Origin: Naegleria gruberi
Taxonomy: Eukaryota
Strand: one strand, 5' to 3'
Assembly (NCBI GenBank): GCA_000004985.1
Contig: GG739205.1
DNA length: 3,829 bases
This document shows, in pieces, positions 2 through 3,829 of this stretch. The number at the start of each line of letters is the position of its first letter. Position 1 is the stretch's first letter. The translations under genes were made by a program, and so were the position numbers. The notes under the pieces were generated by a model. The model was given only the letters and a program-made list of their open reading frames with translations. It made no database searches and was not told the DNA's origin.

Positions 2-334
2 CCAATTTCAATACTAAAATCATACATGGATTTGGTTAGGAATTTCAAAGATGCTGAGTCCCCATTATTTTCCTTCGAAAACGACAAATTCTTTGATTCA
101 GATGGTATTTCAAAGATACTAAAGAATGCAGTGGGTATAGTAGATCAAGGCGTAACAGTCTCAGGTCACAGCCTTAGAATAGGTGCTATCACAGAAGGAC
201 TCAGAAAGGGTATGTCTACAACTGATCTAATGGTCGGTGCAAGACATAAAAAGGAAAAAAGTTTATTTCCTTACCTTAGATCTGAAGGCCTAGCTGGCAA
301 GAATTTCACTAACACTCTATTTTCTCTGGACTAA
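2..334 (+). CDS. 3' (C-terminal) part of a tyrosine site-specific recombinase (phage-integrase family catalytic domain). It is 5'-incomplete: the frame is open back to the window edge at position 2, and the first in-frame ATG is at 26. The stop is TAA at 332-334.
   Basis: The translation contains SGHSLRIGAIT, with the box II His-x-x-Arg at H48/R51 of the 102-aa ORF. H74 sits 23 residues after R51, which is the usual His/Trp III position. The candidate catalytic Y83 lies in PYLRS, 9 residues after H74 and 32 after R51. This R-to-H-to-Y spacing matches XerD-like tyrosine recombinases. The frame upstream of the ATG (PISILKSY) is open to position 2 and stays homologous to the region upstream of ORF2. 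GC is about 40% here against about 20% in the flanks. Confidence 0.7.
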   Translation, partial: PISILKSYMDLVRNFKDAESPLFSFENDKFFDSDGISKILKNAVGIVDQGVTVSGHSLRIGAITEGLRKGMSTTDLMVGARHKKEKSLFPYLRSEGLAGKNFTNTLFSLD

Positions 335-382
335 CCCATTGGTTTATCAACGAAATTCTTTATTGTTTTATTTGGAGAAATA
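334..382 (+). repeat. Direct repeat A1, 49 bp: ACCCATTGGTTTATCAACGAAATTCTTTATTGTTTTATTTGGAGAAATA. It is a perfect copy of 1009-1057.
   Basis: I compared the two copies by eye and they match 49/49. The first base is the last base of ORF1's TAA stop. Flanking sequence diverges immediately on both sides (…CTA|A vs …TCT|A on the left, TGG vs AAC on the right). Confidence 0.9.
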
Positions 383-461
383 TGGCTAGTTGCGAGGAAC
401 GATGCAACGTTAGTATTTCGACAAATTGTAAACAATAAAATTGAGTTGATAAATAATTTTT

Positions 462-532
462 ATGCTCAAAAAAATTAAGAAACATGGTAAACACACCAAG
501 CAAAATCATTGCTGACCCACCCACCCATTCCC
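462..532 (+). repeat. C-element copy 1. It has a 5' ATGCTCAAAAAAA box, a variable middle, and a 3' C-rich end CCCACCCACCCATTCCC. The opposite strand of that end reads GGGAATGGGTGGGTGGG, a four-tract G-quadruplex motif.
   Basis: It shares both of its ends with 1581-1643 and with 3581-3625 (minus strand). It lies 80 bp to the right of A1. It is followed by TTAATTTCATC and then an 8-3-8 palindrome AAGAATTC-CTT-GAATTCTT (544-562). Confidence 0.75.
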
Positions 533-836
533 TTAATTTCATCAAGAATTCCTTGAATTCTTTCAAATAGTCCTTCACTCCTTGAGTGTTTTTTCCTATT
601 TGTCTTTTAGTTTGATCTTGGTAAGTGATCCTTCTAAGGATGCAGGATTTGTATTACCTTGTGATACAATAATTTTTATTTCTAACTAACATCATTTGAA
701 TAATTCGAAATATGCTCGTAAAGTAAGCCAGATTTATTTTTTCAAAAAATATTTCTGATGGAAATTACCAGGCATTTTTTTACAAGCAATTCACTAGTTA
801 AAATAGAGAACTTTAATGGATTGGAGTTTTTACCGA

Positions 837-861
837 TTTTTTCCTGCAATGCAGGTTTTTT
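837..861. other. Short GC hairpin CCTGC-aat-GCAGG (843-855) flanked by T6 on both sides. It looks like a weak bidirectional terminator.
   Basis: The sequence is TTTTTT-CCTGCAATGCAGG-TTTTTT. The stem is only 5 bp with a 3-nt loop. Confidence 0.3.
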
Positions 862-1008
862 ATAGGGGAGTTGTTCTACTTCAATCTCGATTTTGTAAAC
901 AACTTTATTAACTCGGGACAATGCTGAATAAAGTCAATGACCTAAAAGGCAACATTTCCGAGCAACATACCTCATCCTTTGGATGAAGAATATGTTGAGT
1001 GAGCTTCT

Positions 1009-1057
1009 ACCCATTGGTTTATCAACGAAATTCTTTATTGTTTTATTTGGAGAAATA
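1009..1057 (+). repeat. Direct repeat A2, 49 bp, a perfect copy of 334-382. Its last two bases are part of the in-frame TAA (1056-1058) that truncates the ORF2 homology.
   Basis: It is identical over 49 bp to 334-382. It lies 64 bp upstream of the ORF2 ATG. Recombinase-homologous coding sequence begins 1 bp after it, at 1059. Confidence 0.9.
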
Positions 1058-1121
1058 AACTCCTATTGAACCATATCGAGGAAATAAGAAATACTGTCCA
1101 GTTTATAACCTTAGAAGATAC

Positions 1122-1430
1122 ATGGACTATGTTAAACATATTAAGGAAGACGATTCTCCATTATTTTCGTTGATGTTTGATGAATATTTCACTCCTACTC
1201 AAATTTCTAATATTATTTCAAGCTCCATGAGCTCTATTGGTGTTCAAAACACTTCAGGCCATAGCCTTCGTATAAGTGCAGCTACTGAGCTGGCTTCTAA
1301 GGGTGTGTCTCAATCTGTGATTGAGACTGCTGGTAATTGGGTGCCTAATTCAAAAGCTAGATTGAGATATCAACGTAGAATTGGCCTAGCTACTCATGGT
1401 TTAACTACTTCTATTATGAGAACTGATTAA
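1122..1430 (+). CDS. Second, diverged paralogous copy of the tyrosine-recombinase C-terminal catalytic segment (102 codons, TAA stop at 1428-1430). It appears 5'-truncated: protein-level homology to ORF1 continues upstream to about 1059 and is ended by an in-frame TAA at 1056-1058. It may be a gene fragment or pseudogene, or a terminal exon.
   Basis: The translation contains SGHSLRISAATELASKGVSQSVIETAGNWVPNSKARLRYQRR. This gives H47-x-x-R50, then W73 at the His/Trp position 23 residues after the Arg (Trp occupies this position in Cre, Flp and many eukaryotic YRs). Y83 follows 10 residues later in the motif RLRYQR. The ORF is collinear with ORF1 over all 102 residues at roughly 36% identity and ends on the same C-terminal ...D. 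The upstream in-frame translation CPVYNLRRYMDYV aligns with ORF1's PISILKSYMDLV. The box I Arg and Lys regions that should lie further N-terminal are not present before the stop. Confidence 0.55.
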   Translation: MDYVKHIKEDDSPLFSLMFDEYFTPTQISNIISSSMSSIGVQNTSGHSLRISAATELASKGVSQSVIETAGNWVPNSKARLRYQRRIGLATHGLTTSIMRTD

Positions 1431-1458: not shown

Positions 1459-1510
1459 TAATCCATTTGTCTTAATTTATTATTTTATTATTTTGTGATT
1501 TTAAAAACAT
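1459..1510 (+). repeat. Direct repeat B1, 52 bp: TAATCCATTTGTCTTAATTTATTATTTTATTATTTTGTGATTTTAAAAACAT. It is a perfect copy of 2052-2103.
   Basis: It matches 2052-2103 at 52/52. It begins 28 bp after the ORF2 stop. It resembles the A repeat at roughly 60-65% identity (CCATTGGTTTATCAA vs CCATTTGTCTTAATT, and TTTATTGTTTTATTTGG vs TTTATTATTTTGTGATT), which suggests a diverged homologue. Confidence 0.9.
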
Positions 1511-1580
1511 GGGAGTTCTGAACATGGTGAAGAACTAGTGTGTTTTTATACAAAATTATTAAAATATTATTTTAAAAATT

Positions 1581-1643
1581 ATGCTCAAAAAATAGTCTCA
1601 ACATCATGTCATCATTAAGGCAAAGTCCCACCCATACCCACCC
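1581..1643 (+). repeat. C-element copy 2. It starts ATGCTCAAAAAA and ends TCCCACCCATACCCACCC. The complement of that end is GGGTGGGTATGGGTGGG, a G4 motif with loops of 1, 3 and 1 nt.
   Basis: The 5' box and 3' C-rich end are the same as in copy 1, and TTAATT follows in both. It lies 70 bp to the right of B1. This mirrors the A1-to-C1 arrangement. Confidence 0.75.
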
Positions 1644-1971
1644 TTAATTAGTATTTACAATTTTTCAGCCTTTATTTCGCTCATTAGCACCCAGTAAGTG
1701 GGCTAATTTCAGAGTGCGGCTGTGTACATTCAAGATGTGCAATTTTTACATTTATTCACTAACTTATTTTTTGGATGACAGTTTCTAATAGATTCGAATC
1801 ATTTTATTTTTCATTCCATTTGTTTCAGAAAATTCATATAGATTTTTATATATTAATGGTGATTTTAGGAACAGGTTTTACAATTTATTCACATACTCTA
1901 TGTTTTTTCTTATCTTTAGCTTCAAAACTATCGATAAGTTTTTCATAATTTTGAGACTTTAATTTCTAGGG

Positions 1972-2008
1972 ACCTGCTAAATAAAGATTTATATCCTTTA
2001 AAGCAGGT
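1972..2008. other. Stem-loop with a 7-bp stem ACCTGCT/AGCAGGT and a 23-nt AT-rich loop. The 5' arm is part of the motif GGACCTGCTAAATAAAG, which recurs inverted at 3000-3017 as GGACCTGCTGAATAAAGC on the minus strand.
   Basis: The inverted repeat is read directly. The second motif copy matches at 17/18. Both contain AATAAA. Confidence 0.3.
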
Positions 2009-2051
2009 TCCAAGGTTGATTCACCATATGGTGTCTCAATCCTTGAGCTTT

Positions 2052-2103
2052 TAATCCATTTGTCTTAATTTATTATTTTATTATTTTGTGATTTTAAAAA
2101 CAT
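2052..2103 (+). repeat. Direct repeat B2, 52 bp, a perfect copy of 1459-1510.
   Basis: It is identical over 52 bp. Its left flank (CTTGAGCTTT|TA) resembles the left flank of A2 (TTGAGTGAGCTTCT|A). This indicates that the A1..A2 and B1..B2 units are homologous as whole units. Confidence 0.9.
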
Positions 2104-2900
2104 ATAATTTGAAAAATTTATCAAGTGTTGTAGTTAAAATTTAATTTGAGTGTAATAAATCTTTATATGAAAAGCTATAAAAAGTACTTTCTTTATTAGA
2201 GATCAAGTTATCGGCGTTAATTGTCTTAAAAATCAATGTTGTTAAACAACTTCAATCATATTTATTAGAATCTTGATGATACAATTTTTTAGACATACCA
2301 TGTTTACCATTTAATATCGAGTAGTAAAAATATGTAAATTAAAAAAAGGAAAAAATGTTGAGTTTTGGTATTTTTTTAAAAAATGTTTTTTTGAAAAAAA
2401 TTTCGATAAAAACTAGAAATTTATTAGTATTTCAATGAAAAATACGAATTTTCATACATGCGTTGGTGGGATATGTTTGTCATATTAGATATTTAATAAA
2501 AATAAAATAAAAATTTTCGCATGTAAATATATATATATATATATACATCCGAAAAAATTTTTGTTGAAAGTTGGTTTATAAGATGGTGGTTAAATTGGTT
2601 TATCTGAAAAATCATTTAAAAGTGATTTAAATATAAAGATAATGAAATTAATTGAAAATTAAGAAGCTAAAATAAATTTTCAAAAATTTATCGATTTGAA
2701 ATTTAGAAAAGCTTAACAAAGTAATATATAAAATATAAAAAACCATTAATTTTTAAAAATCTTCTAAAGTTGGTATTATCATTATGAAGATTATTGATTG
2801 GAAGTAATAATCTTTATGGTAAATCCAAAGAAAATGAATTCAAAGAAAGAACAAACTTTCTAAAAATATTACAAAAACACTGTTATGTTTCTTAAAAGAA
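2104..2900. repeat. Low-complexity A/T homopolymer-rich tract. It contains many A5-8 and T5-8 runs and a reiterated AAAAAATGTT-like motif at 2345-2400. No ORFs are present.
   Basis: Composition is roughly 85% A+T. Stop codons are dense in all six frames. It follows repeat B2 immediately. Confidence 0.6.
2527..2545. repeat. (AT)n dinucleotide microsatellite of about 9.5 units.
   Basis: The sequence is atatatatatatatatata. A shorter (TA)4 run lies at 1433-1440. Confidence 0.9.
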
Positions 2901-3111
2901 AACCAACAATAAATAAACTAATAGATATAAAGCTCACACTACAACTTCTACCTATTCTTAGGTAGTTTGTAGCCTGGTTACTGCTGTTTTTAGGCATTAA
3001 GCTTTATTCAGCAGGTCCAGAAATTAAATAAACTAATCAATACAATCATACTATGATTTCTTAACAAAAAGCAAAAACTAAACTAAATTAAAGCAATCTG
3101 ACAATAAACCA

Positions 3112-3134
3112 AGTTGTTTTTTGGAGAAACAACT
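3112..3134. other. Hairpin with an 8-bp stem (AGTTGTTT / AAACAACT) and a 7-nt loop TTTGGAG. The loop and 3' side resemble the right end of the A repeat plus A2's flank (TTGTTTTATTTGGAGAAATAAACTCC vs TTGTTTTTTGGAGAAACAACTCCC).
   Basis: The inverted repeat is read directly from the sequence. The similarity to A2 and its flank is about 21/26 after allowing one 2-bp indel. Confidence 0.35.
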
Positions 3135-3141
3135 CCCATAT

Positions 3142-3170
3142 AAAAAAACCTACTCTTGTAGGAAAAAAAA
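3142..3170. other. Short hairpin CCTAC-tctt-GTAGG (3149-3162) flanked by A7 and A8. Its architecture and stem sequence resemble the 843-855 hairpin (CCTRC...GYAGG).
   Basis: The sequence is AAAAAAA-CCTACTCTTGTAGG-AAAAAAAA. The 13-mer AAAAAACCTACTC recurs at 3198-3210. Confidence 0.3.
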
Positions 3171-3273
3171 TCGGTAAAAACCAAAAAGTTAAGAATTAAA
3201 AAACCTACTCAACCGTCTTGACACTTACGAATCAAAACGAGAATGAGAAAAGAGGTATGTTCAGTACATATTG

Positions 3274-3309
3274 CCTTACTAATAGTAAGGGAAAGGTATC
3301 AGATACCTT
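3274..3309. promoter_or_regulatory. Two adjacent perfect 17-bp palindromes: CCTTACTA-A-TAGTAAGG (3274-3290) and AAGGTATC-A-GATACCTT (3293-3309). Each has 8-bp arms and a 1-bp centre. Candidate dimeric protein-binding sites.
   Basis: Both are perfect inverted repeats when read by eye. They are separated by 2 bp. Both arms carry CCTT/AAGG ends. They lie within about 30 bp of the phased direct repeats at 3335-3371. Confidence 0.5.
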
Positions 3310-3334
3310 CTAATCAACATAAAATTGATCTGTC

Positions 3335-3371
3335 GGTTTTAGATCACCAACAATTGGTTTTAGATCACCAA
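3335..3371. repeat. Two perfect 16-bp direct repeats, GGTTTTAGATCACCAA, at 3335-3350 and 3356-3371. The 21-bp phasing equals two helical turns, which is iteron-like.
   Basis: The two copies match exactly. Each contains GATC. They lie directly downstream of the twin palindromes. Confidence 0.8.
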
Positions 3372-3580
3372 TCATGATAAAAAACATCAATAAATGATGT
3401 CAAATATCAAATAATAATACAAAGATAAAAAGATGATAACAATCATCTTTCAATAATACAAATAGAGTGAAATCTTTCAATCAATTGAGAAAATATTTGA
3501 GGATTGATTAAAAAATCACATTCTAAAGTATTAAGGACAAAGGTTAGAACCTTTGATTTGAATAAACTAATAATAATAGA

Positions 3581-3625
3581 GGGTGGGCAAGGGTGGGACC
3601 ATAGTATGACAATTTTTTTGAGCAT
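3581..3625 (-). repeat. C-element copy 3, in inverted orientation. The minus strand reads ATGCTCAAAAAAATTGTCATACTATGGTCCCACCCTTGCCCACCC. The plus strand carries GGGTGGGCAAGGGTGGG, a G4 motif.
   Basis: It has the same 12-bp 5' box and the same CCCACCC-N3-CCCACCC end, with a shorter middle. It is followed on the minus strand by an 8-2-8 palindrome (plus strand 3538-3555, CAAAGGTT-AG-AACCTTTG). Confidence 0.7.
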
Positions 3626-3681
3626 ACTTTCTATTATTAGTTTATTCAATTGTTGTTTTCAAGAAACACTACTTTATCTCA

Positions 3682-3829
3682 GTAAACTTCGATAAGAACA
3701 GAAATATCAAAGAATGTGGAAGAGATAAGGTAGTTTAAACCCTTCTCAGCGTAAGAACTTGTAATACTACTCAATCCGCTTCTATGGAATAGGTTGAAAA
3801 ATAGCAAAAGATAAACGCCACCAATATTT
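3682..3829 (-). CDS. Possible 3' end of a minus-strand gene that runs off the right edge of the window. There are 49 open codons ending in TGA (plus-strand 3679-3681). The product is unknown.
   Basis: An open 49-codon stretch is unusual in this stop-rich AT background. Local G+C is about 38%, higher than the surrounding non-coding DNA. The translation is ...NIGGVYLLLFFNLFHRSGLSSITSSYAEKGLNYLISSTFFDISVLIEVY*. I recognise no motif in it. Confidence 0.2.

What the first reader, a model, noticed from the sequence alone, without database searches (positions are those of the whole stretch)
1009..1124. Repeat A2 sits exactly at the truncation point of recombinase copy 2
In ORF2's frame, amino-acid homology to ORF1 runs back to codon 1059-1061. 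The next codon upstream is TAA (1056-1058), whose first two bases are the last two bases of repeat A2. Further upstream the frame reads the repeat as non-recombinase sequence and hits TGA at 996. Repeat A1 likewise begins on the last base of ORF1's stop codon. Both junctions between coding and repeat sequence are therefore base-precise. This suggests the A-bounded segment was inserted or recombined into a pre-existing tandem recombinase pair and removed the 5' part of copy 2. The alternative is that copy 2 is a terminal exon whose acceptor lies between 1058 and 1120; candidate AG sites are at 1079-1080, 1099-1100 and 1113-1114.
Basis: seen in the sequence. Interest (0 to 1): 0.55.

Follow-up and report, generated by a model that had tools for sequence, protein, structure and literature searches.

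The report
Retrotransposon end abutting a truncated recombinase
The 49-base repeat at the break in the second recombinase gene is the natural 3' end of a neighbouring tyrosine-recombinase (DIRS-type) retrotransposon of the amoeba Naegleria gruberi, so this is an ordinary junction between two mobile-element copies, not a split gene or a recoded stop.

Summary
Repeat A is a perfect 49-mer at 334-382 and 1009-1057. TAA lies at 1056-1058, and recombinase homology starts at codon 1059.

The window is a whole 3829-bp Naegleria gruberi scaffold made of the 3' parts of DIRS-order tyrosine-recombinase (YR) retrotransposons. ORF1 is the last 110 residues of a 302-aa YR (109/110 identical to N. gruberi P0005). 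ORF2 matches residues 182-302 of another family.

In relatives the YR gene follows gag and an RT/RNase H/Dam-like pol. A complete Willaertia magna element shows split direct repeats: A1-gag-pol-YR-B1-A2-(unique Y)-B2.

The end of "A2" (1057) is therefore the 3' terminus of element 1. It abuts a 5'-truncated element 2, most likely through nested insertion.

The intron and stop-reassignment alternatives are rejected. The family is known from Naegleria only through automated screens, and its termini appear undescribed: SDR plus an inverted copy of B, a unique Y segment and an antisense G-quadruplex motif. The finding itself is ordinary, so interest is low.

The parts
2..334 (+). 3' part of the tyrosine-recombinase gene of element 1 (residues 193-302 plus TAA). 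It carries HxxR, His and the catalytic Tyr. Arg-I and Lys lie off the window.
   Evidence: 109/110 identical to N. gruberi P0005 residues 193-302; invariant columns of the family alignment.
334..382 (+).
   Evidence: family D2 (100% identical to 1009-1057). Homologous B follows the YR stop in unit 2, L001, N. fowleri L008 and Willaertia L005.
383..515 (+). A2 of element 1: a copy of the element's 5' end. It comprises a 31-nt spacer (383-413), B' (414-453, an inverted copy of B) and the conserved ATGCTCAAAAAA at 462-473 (probable gag start). The A/Y border lies somewhere in 474-515 and is not pinned down.
   Evidence: I1. B against rc(B') scores 22, shuffles 8.8+-1.6. DNA hairpin -20.7 kcal/mol, z = -4.5; alignment with unit 2, unit 3, L001 and N. 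fowleri. By analogy with Willaertia A1=A2.
516..1008 (+). Y of element 1: a unique segment between A2 and B2. It opens with the C-rich motif CCCACCCACCCATTCCC (an antisense G-quadruplex-type motif, 516-532).
   Evidence: homology with unit 3. G4 scan; the Willaertia Y begins CCCACTCTCCACTCCC.
1009..1057 (+).
   Evidence: D2. Identity with B1 stops at 1057. In Willaertia the element ends at the end of B2, and the joint B2|A1 equals B1|A2.
1058..1058 (.). Junction base between the element 1 terminus and the truncated element 2 (breakpoint 1057/1058, +-1 nt).
1059..1430 (+). 5'-truncated tyrosine-recombinase gene of element 2 (equivalent to residues 182-302 plus TAA). It has HxxR (1260-1271), Trp (1338-1340) and Tyr (1368-1370) but lacks Arg-I and the GHKTD Lys. 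It is annotated at NCBI as a 102-aa 'predicted protein' starting at ATG 1122.
   Evidence: PF00589, 27.3 bits. P0001; 61% identity to P0004 175-301..
1459..1510 (+). B1 of element 2 (52 nt).
   Evidence: D1; its first 39 nt are also contiguous with the YR end in the independent copy L002.
1511..2051 (+). A2 plus Y of element 2. B' lies at about 1540-1576, ATGCTCAAAAAA at 1581-1592 and the antisense G4 motif at 1627-1643.
   Evidence: (z = -2.7).
2052..2103 (+). B2 of element 2: the 3' terminus of element 2.
   Evidence: D1. It is followed by DNA of 19-25% GC with no element homology.
2104..2884 (.). AT-rich flank between two element tails. No coding or repeat homology was found.
2885..3700 (-). 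Third unit, inverted: A (B' at 3631-3672, ATGCTCAAAAAA at 3625-3614), G4 motif at 3581-3597, Y, and a B-like end at 2930-2885. No B1 and no YR lie upstream, so it looks like a solo A-Y-B remnant.
   Evidence: inverted blastn matches to units 1 and 2.; score 26 against shuffles 9.7+-1.7; no hairpin at the B1 position, z = +0.26; no YR homology in 3701-3829.

Best explanation
The scaffold is a small cluster of DIRS-order retrotransposon remains in Naegleria gruberi. These are tyrosine-recombinase retrotransposons with gag, then RT/RNase H/Dam-like MT, then YR.

Elements of this heterolobosean lineage carry split direct repeats: A1-gag-pol-YR-B1-A2-Y-B2.
- B is about 50 nt and starts at or near the YR stop codon.
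- A is the 5' end of the element. It has a 26-31-nt spacer, an inverted copy of B (B') and the gag start.
- Y is a unique stretch of 350-500 nt.

Both copies of A, and both copies of B, are laid down from one template at reverse transcription. That is why the pairs are perfect although the two elements are very different from each other.

Its last base (1057) is the element's 3' terminus. That terminus abuts codon 182 of the YR gene of a second, different element.

The most likely history is that element 1 integrated into the YR gene of element 2. The presumed route is YR-mediated recombination of a circular or ends-joined cDNA cut at the B|A joint, which leaves no target duplication. The 5' part of element 2 should then lie upstream of element 1's A1, outside this scaffold.

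Shown:
- the anatomy;
- the homologies;
- the A1=A2 and B1=B2 structure in a complete relative;
- the truncation.

Inferred:
- the integration mechanism;
- that the event was a nested insertion rather than a deletion or ectopic exchange;
- the role of B/B' as recombinase-binding or end-pairing sequence.
For: Origin and proteins:
- the window is an N. gruberi scaffold, and full-length 302-aa YRs exist in N. gruberi, N. fowleri and Willaertia.
- ORF1 is 109/110 identical to the P0005 C-terminus.
- in L004 a gag-like ORF and a pol (RVT_1 1.9e-23, RVT_3 0.007, Dam 6.4e-4) precede the YR and overlap it by ATGA.
- Dam-like hits recur in the same place in L003 (7.5e-5) and L006 (1e-5).

Complete relative:
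- describe a complete Willaertia element.
- A1 (6569-6736) matches A2 (11040-11207) over a 169-nt, 100% repeat that includes one shared boundary base.
- B1 (10988-11039) equals B2 (11567-11618), 52 nt at 100%.
- gag, pol and YR lie between them, and Y lies between A2 and B2.

Same architecture in the window:
- the same B-A-Y-B order occurs three times in the window with family-specific sequence.
- the B/B' inverted pair is kept in every family, although the sequences differ.
- in L001 the first base of A abuts an inverted, truncated YR. This is a second case of an element terminus against a broken YR gene.

Literature:
- PMC3266345 reports DIRS1-like sequences in N. gruberi.
- PMC6125883 lists 89 DIRS copies in N. 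lovaniensis.
- PMC4157794 and PMC6681497 define the A1..B1-A2-B2 split direct repeats.
Against: - No 5' end (A1) of an N. gruberi element could be fetched. Look-ups of N. gruberi proteins failed. A1=A2 is therefore shown only in Willaertia and inferred for the window.
- The canonical SDR has A2 directly followed by B2. Here a unique Y lies between them.
- The other half of the supposed nested insertion is off the scaffold, so insertion cannot be told apart from deletion or ectopic recombination.
- The MT-like hits are all below Pfam's gathering score.
- Misassembly of a 3.8-kb all-repeat scaffold cannot be excluded without the reads.
Confidence: 0.85

Rival explanations
1. The 626-bp segment 383-1008 is an independent small mobile element (MITE or SINE-like). 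It inserted downstream of ORF1 and duplicated 49 bp of target (A). The segment 1511-2051 did the same with B.
For: Perfect direct repeats flank each segment. The segments share motifs.
Against: - A and B are homologous to each other and to the sequence after the YR stop in L001, N. fowleri and Willaertia. A target duplication would be arbitrary sequence.
- Each 'target' is complementary to B' inside its own 'insert', in a family-specific way.
- In Willaertia the start of the segment is the element's own 5' end, including the gag ATG.
- Deleting the segment plus one repeat copy would still leave copy 2 truncated.
Confidence: 0.04
2. Copy 2 is intact. It is either a terminal exon spliced to an upstream exon, or it is read through TAA or TGA as sense codons.
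For: AG dinucleotides lie at 1079-1080, 1100-1101 and 1113-1114. N. gruberi does have introns (general knowledge).
Against: - The related YR genes are single 302-aa ORFs without introns.
- The conserved coding sequence TPIEPY..CPV spans the proposed acceptors.
- No YR N-terminal homology exists in any frame of the window.
- Positions 1009-1057 are identical to the non-coding tail of element 1.
- TAA ends both ORFs of the window and TAA, TAG or TGA ends their homologues, always at the conserved C-terminus.
Confidence: 0.01
3. The B2|YR2 joint arose from a deletion or an ectopic (non-allelic) recombination within a cluster of elements, and not from integration of element 1 into element 2. Alternatively, it is an assembly chimera.
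For: - The scaffold is short and entirely repetitive.
- These elements occur in rearranged clusters elsewhere (L001, L002, L008).
- The last codons of B read LFYLEK, weakly like the YR sequence FFLIEKP at that position. This could be microhomology.
Against: - The break on the element 1 side falls exactly at the natural terminus (the end of B2), as expected for integration. A random deletion would rarely do so.
- L001 shows another break exactly at the natural 5' terminus.
- No sequence is shared by the two sides of the joint that could mislead an assembler.
Confidence: 0.1

Closest known systems
PAT-like elements of the DIRS order (Pat1, Toc, kangaroo)
   Same: Both have gag, RT/RNase H, an MT-like domain and a tyrosine recombinase. 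[quoted passage not shown]
   Different: Here a unique Y segment of 350-500 nt separates A2 from B2. A carries an inverted copy of B, so the ends also form an imperfect inverted repeat. Phylogenetic placement of the RT was not done.
DIRS1-like elements (Dictyostelium DIRS-1)
   Same: The gene content is the same, including the Dam-like MT domain. N. gruberi sequences were assigned to DIRS1-like by TBLASTX in PMC3266345. Both have internal sequences that match both termini. As far as I recall, both also tend to sit in clusters or insert into each other.
   Different: DIRS1 has long inverted terminal repeats, and its internal regions are the inverse complement of the termini. Here the internal B1 and A2 are direct copies of the termini.
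Ngaro and VIPER YR retrotransposons
   Same: Both show the A1 ... B1-A2-B2 split direct repeats downstream of the YR, sometimes at 100% identity (PMC6681497). VIPER hosts (kinetoplastids) belong to Discoba, like Naegleria.
   Different: Ngaro and VIPER lack the MT domain. Here Dam-like hits recur between RNase H and the YR.
Nested LTR-retrotransposon insertions and solo LTRs
   Same: One element's terminus interrupts the coding region of another. Unit 3 (A-Y-B without internal genes) looks like the product of repeat-by-repeat recombination.
   Different: Integration here is presumably by a tyrosine recombinase and leaves no target-site duplication. The repeats are split, not whole LTRs.

Membership tests
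Tyrosine recombinase (Phage_integrase, PF00589) | Catalytic residues Arg-I, Lys, His-x-x-Arg, His/Trp and Tyr in a C-terminal catalytic domain. | tested here: met
   the ORF2 fragment hits PF00589 at 27.3 bits (cut-off 27.1). R142, K170, H248, R251 and Y283 are invariant in nine family members. Both window copies keep HxxR, His/Trp and Tyr. Copy 2 lacks Arg-I and Lys because of the truncation, and copy 1's lie off the window; the profile matches XerA and Cre structures (1e-5 to 1e-4).
DIRS-order YR retrotransposon | The YR gene lies in the same element as gag and RT/RNase H. | tested here: met
   This is met in relatives, not inside the window. L004 has gag-like 44-958, pol 810-2816 (RVT_1 1.9e-23) and YR 2813-3721. 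The same order is seen in L003, Willaertia L005 and N. fowleri L008.
DIRS group (DIRS1-like plus PAT-like), as opposed to Ngaro/VIPER | A methyltransferase-like (Dam-like) domain after RNase H. | tested here: inconclusive
   PF05869 hits occur at the same place in three copies: 19.9, 22.9 and 25.8 bits (E = 6.4e-4, 7.5e-5, 1e-5). All are below the 28.1-bit cut-off.
PAT-like / split-direct-repeat termini | A1 at the 5' end is identical to A2, B1 is identical to B2, and the order is A1...B1-A2-B2. | tested here: met
   B1=B2 holds twice in the window. A1=A2 and B1=B2 hold in the complete Willaertia element. A1 of the N. gruberi elements was not obtainable. An extra Y segment lies between A2 and B2.
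DIRS1-like termini | Inverted terminal repeats, plus internal complementary regions that are the inverse complement of the termini. | tested here: not met
   The internal copies are direct, not inverted. Only a 40-nt imperfect inverted pair B/B' exists.
Crypton (YR-only DNA transposon) | A YR with no reverse transcriptase in the element. | tested here: not met
   An RT ORF overlaps the YR start in L003 and L004 and precedes the YR in L005 and L008.
Spliced terminal exon | An acceptor site upstream of the conserved coding sequence, plus an upstream exon encoding the missing N-terminal part. | tested here: not met
   No N-terminal YR homology occurs anywhere in the window. The homologues have no introns. 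The only AG just upstream of 1059 (1051-1052) would leave TAA in frame.
Target-site duplication of an inserted element | Flanking direct repeats that are arbitrary target sequence, unrelated to the insert and between insertions. | tested here: not met
   The B repeats are homologous across families and genera, and each is complementary to B' inside its 'insert'.

The most novel reading that the evidence does not exclude
The heterolobosean (Naegleria/Willaertia) DIRS-group elements may have a terminal architecture that has not been described. It combines split direct repeats (A1/A2, B1/B2) with an inverted copy of B inside A. Each internal repeat is then a direct copy of one terminus and, at the same time, the inverse complement of the other. 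There is also a unique Y segment opened by an antisense G-quadruplex motif. Such an element would be the kind of intermediate between PAT-type split direct repeats and DIRS1-type ITR/ICR termini that PMC4157794 says has not been observed. The B/B' pairing could be what brings the two ends of the single-stranded cDNA together.
Probability: 0.3. Interest if true: 0.4.

Novelty: new member of a known kind. Interest (0 to 1): 0.2.

Why it matters
There is little to gain for genome biology at large. The finding explains a 'predicted protein' of N. gruberi (window 1122-1430) as a transposon fragment. It also shows that this scaffold is a nest of tyrosine-recombinase retrotransposons.

For mobile-element specialists the termini are of modest interest. 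They give base-precise ends for a Naegleria/Willaertia DIRS-group lineage that was known only from automated screens. They also combine direct and inverted terminal logic, which bears on how split direct repeats and DIRS1-type inverted repeats evolved from one another.

Tried and rejected
- tRNA and Rfam scans of the window found nothing relevant.
- A single-sequence homologue search with ORF1 found nothing. Only the profile search worked.
- Look-ups of four N. gruberi proteins (P0005, P0008, P0012, P0007) and of the 72-aa antisense ORF 360-578 were 'not on record'. No full-length N. gruberi copy could therefore be read.
- The metagenome scan gave only two short contigs with no 3' flank.
- My first idea was that L001 carries a left inverted terminal repeat (DIRS1 type). 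I dropped it because the Willaertia element has direct A1/A2. The L001 motif is better read as the 5' end of another, inverted element abutting a broken YR. As a consequence, the first eight residues (SSLRSELA) of my profile sequence 1 are not YR sequence. This is harmless for the search.
- My guess that the ORF upstream of the YR in L002 is a LINE ORF2 tail was not supported.
- A weak YR C-terminus I thought I saw on the minus strand at 3701-3829 was not supported by tblastn.
- The in-frame resemblance of the end of repeat A (LFYLEK) to YR residues FFLIEKP was considered as evidence that A derives from YR coding sequence. I rejected it as probably chance in AT-rich DNA. Only the last 5-6 codons match, and the DNA of the copy-2 family at that place (ATGATTGATGATCCA) does not match.

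Full report
**1. Observation**

The window was read in full.
- Repeat A is a perfect 49-mer at 334-382 and 1009-1057. A second perfect pair (B, 52 nt) lies at 1459-1510 and 2052-2103.
- ORF1 runs in frame from position 2 to the TAA at 332-334. Repeat A1 therefore starts on the last base of the stop codon.
- In ORF2's frame the translation reads ...FG*RIC*VSFYPLVYQRNSLLFYLEK*TPIEPYRGNKKYCPVYNLRRYMD....
- The two ORFs are 34% identical. The ORF2 fragment hits Pfam Phage_integrase.

Two small corrections apply.
- Within the window, homology to ORF1 can only be traced to 1098, because ORF1 is cut by the window edge.
- The AG at '1099-1100' is at 1100-1101.

**2. Where the window comes from and what the ORFs are**

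ORF 1122-1430 is an NCBI 'predicted protein' of Naegleria gruberi on a contig of exactly 3829 bp. The window is therefore a whole small scaffold.

A profile search found full-length recombinases of 302-331 aa in N. gruberi (302-326 aa) and Willaertia magna (331 aa), shorter fragments in N. fowleri (152 and 192 aa), and further 302-306-aa copies in metagenome and SRA contigs.
- ORF1 is 109/110 identical to the last 110 residues of N. gruberi P0005.
- ORF2's frame from 1059 matches residues 182-301 of P0004 and P0006 at 56-61% (the alignment itself starts at residue 175, window 1038).
- In those proteins, and in the 67%-identical contig L001, the protein continues upstream of TPIEPY (..HKTDFFMIDDP|TPIEPY).
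- Upstream of 1059 the window has only repeat A2.

Copy 2 is thus truly truncated at 1058/1059. It lacks the Arg-I (ARPGE/D) and Lys (GHKTD) catalytic residues that are invariant in the family. No N-terminal YR, gag or pol homology exists elsewhere in the window.

**3. What kind of element**

In contig L004 the YR ORF (2813-3721) overlaps by ATGA a 668-aa pol ORF. That pol has RVT_1 (1.9e-23), an RNase H-like hit and a Dam-methyltransferase-like hit, and it is preceded by a gag-like ORF.
- The same order is seen in L003, Willaertia L005 and N. fowleri L008.
- Dam-like hits recur in the same place in L003 and L006, all just below Pfam's cut-off.

This is the gene content of DIRS-group tyrosine-recombinase retrotransposons.
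- PMC3266345 reported degenerate DIRS1-like sequences in N. gruberi.
- PMC6125883 lists 89 'DIRS' copies in N. lovaniensis.

**4. The termini**

The Willaertia locus holds a clean element.
- A 169-nt 100% repeat links 6568-6736 to 11039-11207. Its first base is the shared B/A boundary T, so A1 is 6569-6736 and A2 is 11040-11207.
- A1 contains the gag ATG at 6714.
- B1 (10988-11039, overlapping the end of the YR ORF) equals B2 (11567-11618).
- A1 starts exactly where, at the internal joint, A2 follows B1.

This is the split-direct-repeat layout A1...B1-A2-B2 that defines PAT-like, Ngaro and VIPER elements (PMC4157794, PMC6681497). The difference is a 359-nt unique segment (Y) between A2 and B2.

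The window shows the same tail three times.
- Unit 1: B1 334-382, A2+Y 383-1008, B2 1009-1057.
- Unit 2: B1 1459-1510, A2+Y 1511-2051, B2 2052-2103.
- Unit 3 is inverted (2885-3700) and has A, Y and a B-like end. It has no B1 and no YR upstream, so it looks like a solo remnant.

The B repeats are homologous across families and genera. They begin A(A/C/T)CCA(T/A)T and mostly end in ACAT. B starts between 9 nt before the end of the YR ORF (stop codon included) and 28 nt after it, depending on the copy. The base-precise contact of A1 with the ORF1 stop is therefore just compact organisation.

In every family, B is followed after 26-31 nt by an inverted copy of itself (B').
- Alignment scores are 17-26 against 9-11+-2 for shuffles.
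- DNA hairpin z-scores are -4.5 for unit 1, -2.7 for unit 2 and -8.2 for Willaertia.
- The sequences differ between families but stay complementary, which argues for function.

A conserved ATGCTCAAAAAA follows B' in six Naegleria sequences. By analogy with Willaertia it is probably the gag start. Just downstream lies a C-rich motif whose complement is a G-quadruplex-type motif. These are the only three such motifs in the window.

**5. Explanation of the finding**

Beyond it lies a different element whose YR gene is cut at codon 182. The perfect identity of the B pairs, despite 34% identity between the two recombinases, fits repeats copied from one template in each replication cycle.

The simplest history is integration of element 1 into the YR gene of element 2.
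- L001 gives an independent parallel. There the first base of A (TGGCTAATTC...) of an inverted element abuts a YR gene broken at about codon 120.
- In L008 a LINE interrupts the pol of another copy.
- In L002 unrelated sequence replaces the YR upstream of YNLRRY.

These elements are evidently often found broken by, or next to, other repeats. The integration mechanism is inferred from what is proposed for DIRS-order elements, not shown here. That mechanism is a tyrosine recombinase acting on an end-joined cDNA at the B|A joint, with no target duplication.

**6. Rivals**

- A segment-plus-target-duplication model fails, because the 'duplication' is conserved element sequence complementary to B' and because A equals the element's own 5' end in Willaertia.
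- The exon and sense-stop models fail on the intron-less homologues, on the conserved coding sequence across the proposed acceptors, and on the absence of any upstream YR exon.
- Deletion, ectopic exchange or misassembly cannot be excluded without the neighbouring DNA or the reads. However, a break exactly at the natural terminus favours integration.

**7. Novelty and score**

Nested or adjacent transposon copies are routine, and DIRS-type elements are already recorded in Naegleria. The finding is explained and ordinary.

What may be new is the description of the termini of this heterolobosean lineage: split direct repeats, an inverted B', a unique Y and an antisense G4 motif. I could find no paper describing them, but Repbase could not be consulted. 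Interest is 0.2.

Noticed in passing
window 516-532 (-), 1627-1643 (-), 3581-3597 (+); L005 11208-11223: The only three G-quadruplex-type motifs (four G3 runs) in the window sit at the same place in all three units, antisense to the element, shortly after the conserved ATGCTCAAAAAA. In Willaertia a similar C-rich run, CCCACTCTCCACTCCC, begins exactly where A2 stops matching A1.
   Followed up: partly
window 2885-3700 (minus strand): The third unit has A, Y and a B-like end, but no B1 hairpin partner and no recombinase homology upstream. It looks like a 'solo' A-Y-B left by A1xA2 recombination, or like a non-autonomous derivative.
   Followed up: partly
window 1038-1058: In ORF2's frame the last six codons of repeat A read LFYLEK*. 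This resembles FFLIEKP (P0005 173-179) and FYLLEKP (P0009) at the homologous recombinase position. It is probably chance in AT-rich DNA (a rough estimate of a few per cent), but it could reflect short homology used in integration.
   Followed up: partly
window 334-458, 1459-1578; L005 10988-11115: B, a 26-31-nt spacer and an inverted copy B' form a long imperfect hairpin or inverted-repeat site at the B|A joint. It is conserved in structure but not in sequence between families. It may be a recombinase site or an end-pairing device.
   Followed up: partly
L002 1-720 and 1060-1123: An 84%-identical copy of recombinase 2 is cut at a different point (YNLRRY) by an unrelated 220-aa ORF with a C-x2-C...H-x4-C motif. 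That ORF has no Pfam hit and no similarity to the N. fowleri LINE. The copy also diverges from the window after the first 39 nt of B.
   Followed up: partly
L008 4686-8450 and 11480-11952: In N. fowleri a LINE (endonuclease, RT and RNase H) interrupts the pol of a frameshifted DIRS-type copy. Two tandem inverted copies of the A region lie about 1 kb downstream of its recombinase.
   Followed up: partly
window 1122-1430: The NCBI/UniProt 'predicted protein' of N. gruberi (P0001, 102 aa) is the tail of a truncated transposon recombinase that lacks two catalytic residues. It is not a host gene.
   Followed up: yes
window 2504-2565: There is an AT-rich palindrome with a (TA)n core inside the 19% GC flank. 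It gave only sub-threshold miRNA-family hits in Rfam.
   Followed up: no
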